DNA of 64,000 nucleotides, from sequence record OR880646.1. The stretch is one strand, 5' to 3'. Shown here one piece after another: positions 12,281-36,415 of the stretch. How positions within the stretch are numbered: position 1 is the stretch's first letter; every line of letters starts with the position of its first letter. Position numbers and translations under genes: made by a program. The DNA comes from Escherichia phage ECP2301. Under the pieces are notes generated by a model that saw nothing but the letters and a program-made list of their open reading frames with translations, was not told the origin of the DNA and did no database searches.

Positions 12281-12649
12281 TTAATCCAAAATATTATTAG
12301 GCATTGGTTGAACACTCGCAAGTTCTTTAAAGAACTCAGTAGAGTCAGGTAATTTAACCATTTCCGGAGCATGCTTGCTAAATTTGTGTTTACAATGACG
12401 GCATTTATATTCAAGTTCCGGTTTACGCCAGTTAATCAATTGAACCTGTTCAGTACCGCATTCAGGACAATTAGGAACGTTTTTAGAAGCCCTTTCGCGA
12501 CGTTCAACCATAGCCATAATAGCATCCCAGGCTGGAGGTTTAAAATCTAAATCGTCAGTAACTAACAGTCCTTTATCAAACCCAGCGCATGGAGTCCATT
12601 CAGGAAAATCTGAAGCTTCGGCAATATCTTCTAATAGACGCTTTTTCAT
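12281..12649 (-). CDS. zinc-ribbon protein (CPEC...CRHC)
   Basis: 122 aa; two CxxC pairs 20 residues apart. Confidence 0.55.
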
Positions 12650-28340: not shown

Positions 28341-28924
28341 TGCATTCCGATTACGAAAAACTGCGGACGAGTAATACCACCAATGCAACATTTAATATTA
28401 CAGCAGTAGTGTACAGTGTCAATATGGACGCTATAAATCTTATCCATATCAGGAGATTTAACAGGCTCATCGATTATATACAAAATCCGCGAAAGCGATA
28501 AACCTCTGAACTTGCTTCCTTTATTACCGATAAAACTACGGACAGAATCAGTAAATAAGCGGAATCGAATATCATCACTAGAATAACGAGAAAATTCTTT
28601 TTTAATGTGGCCTGCAGAAATTTTAGCGTAAGCTGAAGTATTAGAAAGAACAATAACTGTTCCACCATCATACAGCCAATTAGCAGCAAAGTTAGTCACA
28701 GCAGTTGATTTACCAGATTGACGTCCACCATCTAGTCGAAGTGTACAATATTGTTTAAGCAAGTCTTCAAATGGTGGGATATAATCGTTTTTACAAATTT
28801 CTTCTACTCTAGCATCAGAATGGTGTGTAAAAGCATTCATCAGGGATAGATAAGGGCCAGTTAAAAATGTTCTCATTTTATTATCTCTAAATTTGGGCCA
28901 TTCCATGGCGCATGAATTGTCCAT
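28337..28924 (-). CDS. P-loop NTPase-like protein
   Basis: 195 aa; Walker A GGRQSGKST and Walker B-like ILYIIDE. Confidence 0.5.
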   Translation of the reverse strand: MDNSCAMEWPKFRDNKMRTFLTGPYLSLMNAFTHHSDARVEEICKNDYIPPFEDLLKQYCTLRLDGGRQSGKSTAVTNFAANWLYDGGTVIVLSNTSAYAKISAGHIKKEFSRYSSDDIRFRLFTDSVRSFIGNKGSKFRGLSLSRILYIIDEPVKSPDMDKIYSVHIDTVHYCCNIKCCIGGITRPQFFVIGMQ

Positions 28925-29030
28925 TTTCTGTATTTACCCATTACCGCACTCAGGCTCGACCTTATTACAGGTTGGCGGGAATCCCTCATAGAATCATGAG
29001 GTCCAGCTTGTTCCCATATTTCTTATTTGC

Positions 29031-29504
29031 TTATTTGAATGATTTGACGTACTGAATAGAGCCTTTGCTATTCACGAAAGCGATTTTACCATTTTTGTTA
29101 TACATGGTAGCAGTACGCTGATAACCATAAGTTTGCTTACCAGATTGATAACCAACTAATGCAAAATTATCTTCACCCATTTTATTCTGCTTCGCGCGGA
29201 TACGTTCATGACCGTGCGCCATAAGAACCTTAGCATCGCCAGTTGAAATTGATCTACGAGTTTTTTCATCTTCAACTGTACTAACAAAGTCGTCAAATGA
29301 ATCAAATTTAGCATGAGATTTATTATACAGTTTTCCATCTACTGCATAATTATATCCCTGTACATCCATCTCAACTTCTGTACCATCATCCAATACAGCA
29401 GTGATTTTTTGACCTTTTTTAAATTTCAAAAGATCAGTAAAAGATTCAGCAATAATTTGAGAATTAATAGCTGCTTCAGTGATAAATTCTTGATATGTTT
29501 TCAT
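29031..29504 (-). CDS. internal-protein candidate with capsid targeting sequence
   Basis: 157 aa beginning MKTYQEFITEA, matching the T4 IPIII CTS MKTYQEFIAE as recalled; late promoter upstream. Confidence 0.6.
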   Translation of the reverse strand: MKTYQEFITEAAINSQIIAESFTDLLKFKKGQKITAVLDDGTEVEMDVQGYNYAVDGKLYNKSHAKFDSFDDFVSTVEDEKTRRSISTGDAKVLMAHGHERIRAKQNKMGEDNFALVGYQSGKQTYGYQRTATMYNKNGKIAFVNSKGSIQYVKSFK

Positions 29505-29513
29505 GTGTTTCCT

Positions 29514-29930
29514 TTAAATGTAAATATTTTTACCGTAGTATTTATACCAGTGTGGCTTCATTAAAATTTTTTCATCGAGTCGTTGTTGACTCAATTTAAT
29601 AGCTGATTTGCATGGATTATAATCATTTTTCCATTCTGCTGGAATATCGCTGATGTCAGGAACTTCAGTATCTTTTATACTAAACCCACGTTTTAAGCAT
29701 TCCGTTATAATGTCTGATTGACGCTTTCGCAAAAATTCTAACTTATCATAAAAGAACGTAACATGACCAGAACCTAAAATAAACTCGGAAGATATTTTAA
29801 AATCTTTAACCCGTTTACCATTTGCAACATGTTTACGAACTATACCAAAAACACGCGGCAGTTCACGGTATTCTGCGATTAAATGTTGATCAGCAAGTTC
29901 AGATACTAAAGTCAAATTAATACGAGTCAT
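29514..29930 (-). CDS. denV: endonuclease V (pyrimidine-dimer DNA glycosylase)
   Basis: 138 aa; [17 protein letters not shown]...[10 protein letters not shown] as T4 endo V. Confidence 0.93.
29539..29546 (-). promoter_or_regulatory. late promoter (TATAAATA) inside 3' end of denV, upstream of internal-protein gene
   Basis: Plus tatttata; minus TATAAATA about 35 nt upstream of start at 29504. Confidence 0.45.
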
Positions 29931-29953: not shown

Positions 29954-29988
29954 ATATATTATCACAATTCTAGGAGAAAGTAAACAAC
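29954..29988 (-). promoter_or_regulatory. early promoter for denV
   Basis: Minus strand GTTTACtttctcctagaattgTGaTAATAT. Confidence 0.55.
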
Positions 29989-29989
29989 T

Positions 29990-30520
<531 letters not shown>

Positions 30521-30962
30521 TTAAAAGAGGCTGTTCATTATTCGGTAAAGTGAAGGGCCCATCACATATTGCCACTGAGTACGAGGAATAAGAGCAAAAG
30601 CATCCATCTCTGGAATCATAACGCCATCTTTATTTTCAAAATAAGACTCACAACGGCAATTTCTAAACATCTCATGCTCTACTGGAATCGTATAATAAAA
30701 TAACTGTAAGTCTTTATTACTAGAATATTTAAATACACCTAGGTCTTCTATAAGGTCTGGATTATAATTGCTAAAGCCAGTCTCTTCTAAGCATTCTCTT
30801 CGTGCTGCATCTAGTGCGCTTAAATCAGAACTTTCTACACGCCCCCTTTGGAATATCCCAGCGATGTGTCATCATTCCAGGCTTACGAGAACCAGTAACT
30901 CGTCCCATAAATAAATCTTTATCTTCTGTCATAAAGATAATACCAGCTGATAGTGTTTTCAT
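30521..30962 (-). pseudogene. nudE: Nudix hydrolase gene (nudE / e.1-like) interrupted by +1 frameshift in a homopolymer
   Basis: ATG at 30962 gives MKTLSAGIIFMTEDKDLFMGRVTGSRKPGMMTHRWDIPKG then stop; removing one C from the CCCCC run at 30843-30847 restores ...RVESSDLSALDAARRECLEETGF... (Nudix box) to a stop at 30521. Confidence 0.7.
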
Positions 30963-31447
30963 TTTAATTTCCTGCATTCAGTGATAAAGTTATTTAAATT
31001 TTGAGTATATTTCTTTTCATCAAAAATCTTTTGCTGCCTACGTAACCGCCATGGCATTTCAATGAACACGCACCATATTCCTGATAGTACTGCTGCTGTA
31101 AAAATATTAACAAGTATAATTAAAAGAATCCAATCTTCCGTTCTGCCTACTGGACTTTCTCCAAAGAAGCAAAATACAAATGATGTCACAGGAAAACTAA
31201 TAATATACCACAGAATAACCTTCTTATCTGTGAACCAATCAGCGTTCGTTAACTTAGCACGACCATTTTGAATACACACGAATTTATCATCTGTTACAGT
31301 AGATGGCTTAACTGCTTGATATCCCATTCTAAACTCCCTAATTAATCGTTTCTTTGTATCTTCAGAACAGCCGCTCCAGTCAACTCTATCAACTGAAATG
31401 CCATCGTCCCCATCATCTAAATCATACCAGCGAGTTTTTAAAATCAT
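30959..31447 (-). CDS. membrane protein, paralogue 1 of 3 (2 TM helices, C-terminal CRK tail)
   Basis: 162 aa; hydrophobic helices; ends ...ITECRKLK. Confidence 0.6.
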   Translation of the reverse strand: MILKTRWYDLDDGDDGISVDRVDWSGCSEDTKKRLIREFRMGYQAVKPSTVTDDKFVCIQNGRAKLTNADWFTDKKVILWYIISFPVTSFVFCFFGESPVGRTEDWILLIILVNIFTAAVLSGIWCVFIEMPWRLRRQQKIFDEKKYTQNLNNFITECRKLK

Positions 31448-36339: not shown

Positions 36340-36415
36340 GGGGTGACCGATGGGAGTCGAACCCATGACTACGAGAATCACAATCTCGAGTTCTACCAAC
36401 TGAACTACGGCCACA
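36340..36415 (-). tRNA. tRNA-His (anticodon GUG), no encoded G-1
   Basis: Acceptor GTGGCCG/CGGTCAC, anticodon loop TTGTGAT, discriminator C73, CCA encoded; base at -1 is U. Confidence 0.7.

What the first reader, a model, noticed from the sequence alone, without database searches (positions are those of the whole stretch)
30521..30962. Nudix hydrolase gene (nudE-like) disrupted by a +1 frameshift in a C5 homopolymer
Translation from the ATG at 30962 (which overlaps the upstream gene stop as ATGA) gives 41 residues and then a stop. Deleting one C from the CCCCC run at 30843-30847 restores a reading frame that continues through a recognisable Nudix box (G-x5-D-x7-REcLEEtGf) to a stop at 30521. 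This is either a real pseudogene, a programmed frameshift or slippage site, or a homopolymer sequencing error.
Basis: seen in the sequence. Interest (0 to 1): 0.55.

Follow-up and report, generated by a model that had tools for sequence, protein, structure and literature searches.

The report
Frameshifted T4-type nudE (Nudix) gene
A T4-like coliphage carries one extra G in a short G-run of its well-known, dispensable Nudix hydrolase gene nudE; this cuts the protein off before its catalytic motif and is an ordinary loss-of-function allele or, less likely, a sequencing error, not a new mechanism.

Summary
On the minus strand, 30521-30962 is the orthologue of phage T4 nudE (e.1/NudE.1). Removing one base gives a protein 146/151 identical to T4 NudE with a clear Pfam NUDIX hit.

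The window is Escherichia phage ECP2301, where GenBank annotates the two halves as separate CDSs. Of 104 reference CDSs mapped onto the window, only nudE is split.

The G5 allele is absent from 50,697 phage records (the G4 version with the same flanks is in 166), from IMG/VR, from JGI metagenomes and from GTDB genomes. The same extra G does occur in an independent read set (ERR6109018), on a different, otherwise clean T4-like contig. Other nudE lesions exist in REP2/REP3, BYEP02 and several Logan contigs.

I found no recoding signal. T4 with catalytically dead NudE.1 is viable.

Best reading: a genuine replication-slippage null allele of a non-essential accessory gene (about 0.7). Sequencing artefact about 0.2, recoding about 0.03. 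Ordinary; low interest.

The parts
30521..30962 (-). nudE (T4 e.1/NudE.1 orthologue), 442 nt with one extra base. Intact relatives are 441 nt / 146 aa.
   Evidence: The repaired product is 146/151 identical to T4 NudE. Pfam NUDIX 52.2 bits.
30842..30846 (-). G5 run on the coding strand (C5 on +). Site of the +1 insertion, reading ...CCA AAG GGG GCG TGT AGA AAG TTC TGA. Relatives have AAG GGG CGT (G4), AAG GGC CGT (G3) or AAA GGC CGT (G2).
   Evidence: The insertion is private to the window against all 12 covering relatives. The G5 36-mer hits 0 phage records and the G4 36-mer hits 166.
30825..30962 (-). ORF as written: 45 aa (MKTL...WDIPKG + ACRKF) plus TGA. Identical to GenBank WVH02128.1 'hypothetical protein [Escherichia phage ECP2301]'. 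Has no NUDIX hit.
30825..30827 (-). Premature TGA stop in the shifted frame, five codons after the run.
30773..30845 (-). Nudix box GRVESSDLSALDAARRECLEETGF. It can only be read after a +1 shift at the run. The catalytic EE (E59/E60, = E64/E65 in T4 numbering) is at 30782-30787.
   Evidence: E64,65Q abolishes activity of T4 NudE.1 (bioRxiv 10.1101/2024.04.04.588121).
30521..30670 (-). Orphan 49-aa C-terminal ORF from an internal Met, downstream of the Nudix box. Identical to WVH02127.1, which GenBank names 'nudix hydrolase [Escherichia phage ECP2301]'.
30970..30973 (-). AGGA Shine-Dalgarno, 7 nt upstream of the nudE ATG. The alternative in-frame ATG at 30975-30977, which T4 annotation uses, has no such element.
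   Evidence: T4 annotates 151 aa from the upstream ATG.
30959..31447 (-). Upstream gene e.2 (162 aa, intact). Its TGA overlaps the nudE ATG (ATGA).
30498..30518 (-). Two TATAAATA T4 late-promoter motifs (30498-30505 and 30511-30518) in the 36-nt nudE-e spacer. Lysozyme expression therefore does not depend on nudE translation (inference).
   Evidence: sequence. That TATAAATA is the T4 late promoter consensus is established knowledge.
29990..30484 (-). Downstream gene e (T4 lysozyme, 164 aa, intact). Identical to WVH02126.1 of phage ECP2301.

Best explanation
The region is the phage's orthologue of T4 nudE (e.1/NudE.1). That enzyme is a Nudix pyrophosphohydrolase acting on ADP-ribose, Ap3A, FAD, NAD and NAD-capped RNA.

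In this genome (Escherichia phage ECP2301) one G was added to a G4 run (AAG GGG CGT became AAG GGG GCG T). The most likely cause is strand slippage during DNA replication. Translation now leaves the native frame after Gly40, adds ACRKF and stops.

The 45-aa product lacks the whole Nudix box, including the catalytic Glu-Glu, so the allele is a null. No start codon allows re-initiation upstream of the box.

The phage tolerates the loss because NudE is auxiliary. Lysozyme, downstream, has its own late promoters.

Shown: the lesion, its uniqueness among relatives, the cleanliness of the rest of the assembly, and its presence in a second data set. Inferred: the slippage mechanism, that the allele is null, and that the fitness cost is small.
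For: - Lesion and repair.
- Orthology: 146/151 identity to T4 NudE, and the same position between e.2 and e. Pfam NUDIX hits the repaired protein only.
- Clean assembly: of 104 ime09 CDSs mapped onto the window, only nudE is split over two frames. There are only two private single-base homopolymer indels in 64 kb, and the other is intergenic. None of the 53 A/T runs of 6 or more breaks a frame. There are no Ns.
- Independent occurrence: Logan contig ERR6109018_16638 has the same extra G on a haplotype about 5% different from the window. That G is its only non-3n indel in 3.4 kb of coding sequence.
- Other independent nudE lesions show the gene can be lost: REP2/REP3 have lost one G 14 nt upstream. 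BYEP02 has a 77-bp duplication. Logan contigs carry other indels.
- Dispensability: T4 NudE.1 E64,65Q is viable with normal burst size and about 15 min delay in lysis. Earlier work calls the gene auxiliary (bioRxiv 10.1101/2024.04.04.588121).
- No secondary decay downstream of the shift, so the event is recent.
Against: - No read-level data could be examined, and a homopolymer is the classic site of base-calling error.
- No truly close sister genome of ECP2301 was found that could show the allele segregating.
- NudE is conserved in 1,261 phage records, nearly all intact, so loss is unusual in nature.
- The same site appearing in two data sets could reflect a context-specific systematic error rather than biology.
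- The window's two private nonsynonymous changes (A32T, L71I) do not exceed the background seen in neighbouring genes, so there is no independent sign of relaxed constraint.
Confidence: 0.7

Rival explanations
1. Homopolymer sequencing or assembly error. The phage really has G4 and an intact nudE, and the extra base was introduced by base-calling or polishing. Possible contributors include Ion Torrent or Nanopore chemistry, or glucosyl-hydroxymethylcytosine in T-even DNA disturbing the calling of a C run.
For: - The lesion is a single-base length change in a homopolymer.
- All 166 phage records with identical flanks have G4.
- The downstream 106 codons are pristine.
- The window has one other private +1 homopolymer change, T3 to T4 at 28924, intergenic.
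- The window encodes alpha-glucosyltransferase by homology to ime09, so modified C is expected (established knowledge).
Against: - None of 104 mapped CDSs other than nudE is frame-broken, despite 53 A/T runs of 6 or more and 69 other G/C runs of 4-5 in the window.
- The identical insertion is present in an unrelated run (ERR6109018), on a different haplotype and in an otherwise clean contig.
Confidence: 0.22
2. Recoding. Full-length NudE is still made, by +1 ribosomal slippage of peptidyl-tRNA-Gly from GGG to the overlapping GGG in the G5 run (GGG-G). This would be either programmed or a low-level leak that tunes NudE dosage.
For: - Perfect +1 re-pairing is possible on GGG G.
- The +1 frame is open from 9 codons upstream of the run to the native stop.
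- The downstream frame is intact in both G5 carriers, and their 7 differences are 4 synonymous to 3 nonsynonymous (binomial p = 0.06 against neutrality).
- AGGGGG resembles the Shine-Dalgarno-like stimulator of prfB (recalled knowledge, not tested here).
Against: - The site is not conserved. Relatives read in frame with G4, G3 or G2, so the G5 state is derived and rare.
- The A-site codon after the shift site is GCG, which is not a stop. From general knowledge it is a common codon, unlike the slow or stop codons used in known +1 sites. The stop lies five codons further on.
- The Shine-Dalgarno-like AGGGGG overlaps the shift codon instead of lying 3 nt upstream as in prfB.
- There is no Rfam element, and the downstream RNA is no more stable than shuffles (z = +1.1).
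- G5 is too short for transcriptional slippage (established knowledge).
Confidence: 0.03
3. Selected loss. NudE inactivation is favoured in some hosts or during laboratory propagation, and the G-rich stretch of codons 35-41 is the easiest place to break the gene, so null alleles recur there.
For: - Three different frameshifts fall within about 20 nt just upstream of the Nudix box. These are +G (ECP2301 and ERR6109018), -G in TGG GAT (REP2/REP3), and a product ending ...IPKGV* (P0018).
- Further lesions lie elsewhere in the gene.
- NudE acts on NAD, ADP-ribose and NAD-capped RNA, molecules central to phage-defence conflicts (PMC9503650 listed).
Against: - No control census of neighbouring accessory genes was possible, so enrichment is unproven.
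- Disrupted copies are a small minority; for comparison, about 500 Tequatrovirus records carry the gene.
- Several carriers are low-quality or redundant assemblies. REP2 and REP3 are one lineage, and the SRR22877639 contig also splits e.2.
- I found no literature report.
Confidence: 0.08

Closest known systems
Bacteriophage T4 NudE / NudE.1 (gene e.1; NP_049737; Xu et al. 2002 as cited in bioRxiv 10.1101/2024.04.04.588121)
   Same: - 146/151 amino-acid identity after repair.
- The same variant Nudix box (G-x5-D-x8-RE-x2-EE-x-GF) and the same catalytic Glu-Glu.
- The same position immediately upstream of lysozyme gene e, with the two late-promoter motifs in the spacer.
   Different: The reading frame is broken after Gly40 by one extra G, so the catalytic half is not translated. 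The upstream neighbour e.2 is a longer 162-aa gene that overlaps nudE as ATGA; in T4, e.2 lies 160 nt away.
Streisinger-type frameshift mutations at short homopolymer runs in T4 (classical model, first worked out on the adjacent lysozyme gene e; established knowledge)
   Same: A single-base gain in a run of identical bases, giving a short out-of-frame tail and an early stop.
   Different: Here it is a naturally deposited genome, not an acridine-induced mutant. Whether the event is biological at all still needs read-level proof.
prfB (RF2) programmed +1 frameshift of E. coli (established knowledge)
   Same: A P-site codon that can re-pair in the +1 frame, and an AGGGGG string nearby.
   Different: There is no in-frame stop or slow codon in the A site. 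AGGGGG overlaps the shift codon rather than lying 3 nt upstream. There is no conservation among homologues.
Other disrupted nudE copies in public T4-like genomes (REP2/REP3 OQ174501/OQ174502; BYEP02 OR757454; Logan contigs of ERR6109018, ERR1857061, ERR14760525, SRR22877639)
   Same: The same gene and synteny, with the same annotation outcome of split ORFs. The ERR6109018 contig has the identical G4-to-G5 change.
   Different: The other lesions differ: -1 G, a 77-bp tandem duplication, a single-base T deletion, 2-nt duplications, and +A.

Membership tests
Nudix hydrolase superfamily (Pfam PF00293) | Sequence match to the NUDIX domain above the curated threshold | tested here: met
   The repaired 146-aa protein scores 52.2 bits against a cut-off of 21.1, E = 8.4e-14. 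The 45-aa product as written has no hit.
Nudix hydrolase superfamily (Pfam PF00293) | Nudix box GX5EX7REUXEEXGU with catalytic glutamates | tested here: met
   The core RE-CL-EE-T-G-F is present. The first E is D and the loop is x8, not x7. Both deviations are also in biochemically active T4 NudE. The box is encoded only in the +1 frame.
Nudix hydrolase superfamily (Pfam PF00293) | An uninterrupted reading frame that encodes the fold | tested here: not met
   The frame breaks after residue 40 and stops at 30825-30827. The only downstream ORF (49 aa) starts after the box. The locus is therefore a disrupted copy, not a functional member as written.
T4 NudE.1 (e.1) orthologous group | High full-length identity to T4 NudE and conserved position between e.2 and e | tested here: met
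   146/151 identity to NP_049737. The order e.2-nudE-e is shared with 16 loci from other T4-like genomes.
T4 NudE.1 (e.1) orthologous group | Hydrolysis of ADP-ribose, Ap3A, FAD and NAD, and NAD-RNA decapping | not testable with these tools
   These activities are known for the T4 enzyme only. The 45-aa product lacks the catalytic motif, so no activity is expected (inference).
Programmed +1 ribosomal frameshift site | P-site codon able to re-pair in the +1 frame | tested here: met
   GGG followed by G (AAG GGG GCG).
Programmed +1 ribosomal frameshift site | Slow, rare or stop codon in the A site, and/or a correctly spaced upstream stimulator | tested here: not met
   The A-site codon is GCG. 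The stop is five codons downstream. AGGGGG overlaps the shift codon. There is no Rfam element and no stable downstream structure (z = +1.1).
Programmed +1 ribosomal frameshift site | Conservation of the shift site and of the two-frame arrangement among homologues | tested here: not met
   0 of 50,697 phage records carry G5, and 166 with identical flanks carry G4. All other fetched loci carry G2, G3 or G4, except one G5 contig.
Sequencing/assembly artefact | Other frame-breaking homopolymer errors in the same assembly | tested here: not met
   Of 104 mapped CDSs, only nudE is split. The only other private homopolymer indel is intergenic.
Sequencing/assembly artefact | Allele confined to this one assembly | tested here: not met
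   The same G5 is in Logan contig ERR6109018_16638.
Sequencing/assembly artefact | Read-level support for G4 against G5 | not testable with these tools

The most novel reading that the evidence does not exclude
The G-rich stretch of codons 35-41, just upstream of the Nudix box, is a recurrent break-point at which T4-like phages switch NudE off. The same +G appears in two lineages, with -G and another lesion within about 20 nt. The loss would be favoured in some hosts or in culture, for example because NudE's hydrolysis of NAD, ADP-ribose or NAD-capped RNA is costly or is sensed by a defence system. Low-level +1 slippage at GGG-G might leave a trickle of enzyme.
Probability: 0.08. Interest if true: 0.5.

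Novelty: already known. Interest (0 to 1): 0.17.

Why it matters
The value is mainly for annotation. In GenBank, phage ECP2301 carries the two halves of nudE as separate genes: a 45-aa 'hypothetical protein' and a 49-aa 'nudix hydrolase'. They should be one pseudogene, or one repaired gene if reads show G4.

If the allele is real, ECP2301 is a natural NudE-null T4-like phage. It could be compared with a repaired isogenic phage to test the proposed roles of NudE.1 in NAD-cap turnover and lysis timing.

The scattered independent nudE lesions in public genomes suggest a cheap follow-up: is this accessory gene lost more often than its neighbours? Nothing here points to a new mechanism.

Tried and rejected
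1. Looking for the G5 allele elsewhere. All of these found nothing:
- a 21-mer in IMG/VR, JGI metagenomes and GTDB genomes;
- a 36-mer megablast on the phage collection, with the positive control;
- exact look-ups of the 45-aa and 50-aa products in the gene-position index.
The allele was only found indirectly, through the orphan 49-aa ORF cluster.

2. Records whose match spanned 701 bases looked as if they might share the insertion. Their extra base is in the nudE-e spacer.

3. Phage LH2 looked like another disrupted copy. Its record simply starts inside nudE.

4. Sister-genome test. Six contigs with the window's exact lysozyme protein all have intact nudE. They are only 94-96% identical in DNA, so they are not true sisters and the test is not decisive.

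5. Relaxed-constraint test. The window's nudE has 2 private nonsynonymous and 0 private synonymous changes, and neither variant occurs in any phage record. Neighbouring genes show equal or higher private counts, so I rejected this as evidence.

6. IMG/VR census with neighbour controls. Only 4 loci were returned, all intact, which is too few.

7. Recoding signals. The Rfam scan gave only a chance sub-threshold snoRNA hit, and the RNA fold is no better than shuffles.

8. Literature on ECP2301, REP2, the run accessions, or nudE escape mutants. Nothing relevant was found.

9. I ran no further search on a fragment census. Contig-end truncations would swamp true disruptions.

Full report
**What is in the sequence**

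The minus strand of 30300-31300 reads ...AGGAAATTAAAATGAAAACACTA..., followed by CCA AAG GGG GCG TGT AGA AAG TTC TGA.
- The ATG at 30960-30962 overlaps the TGA of the upstream 162-aa ORF (30959-31447) as ATGA, and it is preceded by AGGA at a 7-nt spacing.
- From this ATG the frame gives 45 residues, MKTL...WDIPKG plus ACRKF, and stops at 30825-30827. It gives 50 residues from the in-frame ATG at 30977, which T4 annotation uses.
- Deleting one base gives a 441-nt ORF that ends at the TAA at 30521-30523.
The box is G-x5-D-x8-RE-x2-EE-x-GF.

**What the gene is**

The neighbourhood is that of a T-even phage: e.2, this gene, lysozyme e (29990-30484) and denV (29514-29930). The region is 97-98% identical to Tequatrovirus genomes such as ime09, Sf25 and KIT03, all of which annotate an intact nudix hydrolase here.
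- The repaired protein is 146/151 identical to T4 NudE NP_049737.
- It hits Pfam NUDIX at 52.2 bits against a threshold of 21.1. The 45-aa product hits nothing.
- The catalytic Glu-Glu, E64/E65 in T4 numbering, lies at 30782-30787, downstream of the shift.
- T4 NudE.1 hydrolyses ADP-ribose, Ap3A, FAD and NAD, and it decaps NAD-RNA in vitro. The E64,65Q phage is viable with normal burst size but lyses about 15 min late, and earlier work calls the gene auxiliary (bioRxiv 10.1101/2024.04.04.588121).
- Homologues occur in 1,261 phage records, almost all as a single uninterrupted match.

**Provenance**

Exact protein look-ups identify the window as Escherichia phage ECP2301 (166,439 bp).
- The Ip4-like protein is WVH02124.1 and the lysozyme is WVH02126.1.
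- The 49-aa C-terminal ORF is WVH02127.1, named 'nudix hydrolase'.
- The 45-aa N-terminal fragment is WVH02128.1, named 'hypothetical protein'.

So the deposited record carries the frameshift and annotates the halves as two genes. ECP2301 is not in the phage collection searched here, and I found no paper on it.

**Is the lesion shared?**

- All 32 records found with a 71-mer across the site are one base shorter than the window there.
- Records whose 701-base span suggested an extra base carry it in the nudE-e spacer instead.
- With a 36-mer centred on the run, every megablast seed must span the G5. It finds no record among 50,697, while the G4 version of the same 36-mer finds 166.
- The G5 21-mer is absent from IMG/VR, JGI metagenomes and GTDB genomes.
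- Relatives read AAG GGG CGT, AAG GGC CGT or AAA GGC CGT, that is G4, G3 or G2.
- Ten loci with an identical e.2 protein, and six with an identical lysozyme protein, all have an intact 146-aa NUDIX gene. The latter six are only 94-96% identical in DNA, so they are not true sister genomes.

**An independent carrier**

The orphan 49-aa ORF turned out to be called in other genomes. One of them, Logan contig ERR6109018_16638 (10,163 bp), has the same CCAAAGGGGGCGTG and a 45-aa product ending in the same out-of-frame tail, IPKGACRKF.
- It is about 5% different from the window overall and differs at 7 sites within nudE.
- Against ime09 and Sfk20, the extra G is its only non-3n indel in 3.4 kb of coding sequence.
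- At nudE the two G5 alleles are mutual co-nearest neighbours: 7 differences, 4 synonymous and 3 nonsynonymous. ime09 is equally close to the window.

One origin followed by recombination and two origins on related haplotypes both remain possible.

**Other lesions in the same gene**

- REP2 and REP3, which have the same genome length and are effectively one lineage, have lost one G in TGG GAT, 14 nt upstream.
- A 41-aa product ending ...IPKGV* implies a third lesion at the same run. This is inferred from the protein only.
- BYEP02 has a 77-bp tandem duplication.
- Logan contigs from ERR1857061, ERR14760525 and SRR22877639 carry a 1-nt deletion, two 2-nt duplications and a +A respectively. The SRR22877639 contig also has a split e.2.
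- LH2 is a false positive, because its record starts inside nudE.

I could not run a controlled census, since IMG/VR yielded only four loci, all intact. Whether nudE is hit more often than its neighbours is therefore unknown.

**Error or mutation?**

- I mapped 104 annotated ime09 CDSs onto the window by tblastn. Only nudE is split between frames.
- Compared with ime09, Sfk20 and ten shorter loci, the window has just two private single-base homopolymer changes in 64 kb. One is this insertion, and the other is T3 to T4 at 28924 in an intergenic spacer.
- The last 14.6 kb of the window has no indel at all relative to ime09.
- The window contains 53 A/T runs of 6 or more, and 69 other G/C runs of 4-5. 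None is frame-breaking in a CDS.

An error-prone platform is therefore unlikely, and the second data set argues against a one-off error. A context-specific systematic error remains possible, and only reads can exclude it.

The window's nudE has two private nonsynonymous changes, A32T and L71I, found in no phage record. Neighbouring genes show equal or higher private counts, so this is not evidence of relaxed constraint. The absence of any secondary lesion in the 106 downstream codons means the event is recent or artefactual.

**Recoding?**

A +1 shift of tRNA-Gly from GGG to the overlapping GGG would restore the frame, and the +1 frame is open across the site. The other expected features are missing.
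- The next codon is GCG, and the stop is five codons away.
- AGGGGG overlaps the shift codon rather than lying 3 nt upstream of it as in prfB.
- No other codon between the run and the stop can re-pair in +1.
- There is no Rfam element, and the downstream RNA folds no better than shuffles (z = +1.1).
- The site is derived and rare rather than conserved.
- G5 is too short for transcriptional slippage (established knowledge).
- No ATG, GTG or TTG in the native frame precedes the Nudix box, so re-initiation cannot rescue it.

At most a sub-percent leak is expected (inference).

**Consequences**

The allele is best read as a null. Two TATAAATA late-promoter motifs (30498-30505 and 30511-30518) and a strong GGAGG Shine-Dalgarno lie in the 36-nt spacer before gene e. 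Lysozyme expression should therefore be unaffected (inference from established T4 biology).

**Verdict**

- Most likely (about 0.7): a genuine slippage-type +1 insertion that makes a recent null allele of a conserved but dispensable accessory gene.
- About 0.2: a homopolymer artefact.
- About 0.03: recoding.
- A small chance that the clustering of lesions reflects selected loss.

This is a known gene with an ordinary kind of lesion. Its practical value is in annotation and as a possible natural NudE-null phage.

Noticed in passing
L023/L038 (Logan ERR6109018_16638), nudE at L038 7440-7881; G-run near L038 7556: An independent public read set holds a different T4-like phage (about 95% identical to the window) with exactly the same G4-to-G5 insertion in nudE. 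The contig is otherwise clean.
   Followed up: yes
L022 (REP2 OQ174501.1) 1711-2150; also REP3 OQ174502.1: nudE is broken by loss of one G in TGG GAT, 14 nt upstream of the window's site, giving a 41-aa product. REP2 and REP3 have the same length and the same lesion, so they probably represent one phage.
   Followed up: yes
P0018 (41 aa, NCBI contig of 1,604 nt): An N-terminal NudE fragment ending ...WDIPKGV* implies a third kind of frameshift at the same G-run, probably loss of the C after GGGG. Only the protein was seen, not the DNA.
   Followed up: partly
L019 (BYEP02 OR757454.1), locus about 669-745: A 77-bp tandem duplication inside nudE splits it into 96-aa and 49-aa CDSs. It could be real or an assembly artefact.
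   Followed up: partly
L026 (ERR1857061), L027 (ERR14760525), L025 (SRR22877639): Further disrupted nudE copies: a 1-nt deletion in GACCTAGG, two 2-nt duplications, and a +A in AGTAAT. L025 also has a split e.2, which suggests a noisy assembly.
   Followed up: partly
window 28924-28927: The only other single-base homopolymer change private to the window: T3 to T4, seen against all 11 covering relatives. It lies in the intergenic spacer between the vs.8-like and Ip4-like genes.
   Followed up: partly
window 30498-30518: Two TATAAATA late-promoter motifs and a GGAGG Shine-Dalgarno in the 36-nt nudE-e spacer, as known for T4 gene e. Some relatives have a 37-nt spacer.
   Followed up: partly
L038 8472-9023 (denV of the ERR6109018 phage): denV is called at 183 aa instead of 138. 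The stop codon is replaced (…NIYIQ…), and the Ip4-like gene that follows in the window (29031-29504) is missing at this junction.
   Followed up: no
window 29986-30001 against ime09 L001 30419-30700: ime09 has an extra small internal-head-protein gene between denV and e that the window lacks. One ime09 hypothetical gene (L001 34176-34574) has no counterpart in the window.
   Followed up: no
window 12374-12600 (nrdC.2 region): The N-terminal part of the nrdC.2 homologue is strongly divergent from ime09 and Sfk20, with several mutually compensating small indels. I did not check whether the window's ORF is intact there.
   Followed up: no
window 36344-36348 (tRNA cluster edge): A compensating +T/-G pair, private to the window relative to ime09 and Sfk20, at the boundary of the tRNA-Arg and tRNA-Asn genes.
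   Followed up: no
L024 (LH2 OQ378934.1) 1-153: The deposited LH2 genome is linearised inside nudE, so a 49-aa 'gene' is annotated at the record start. This is an annotation artefact, not a disruption.
   Followed up: yes
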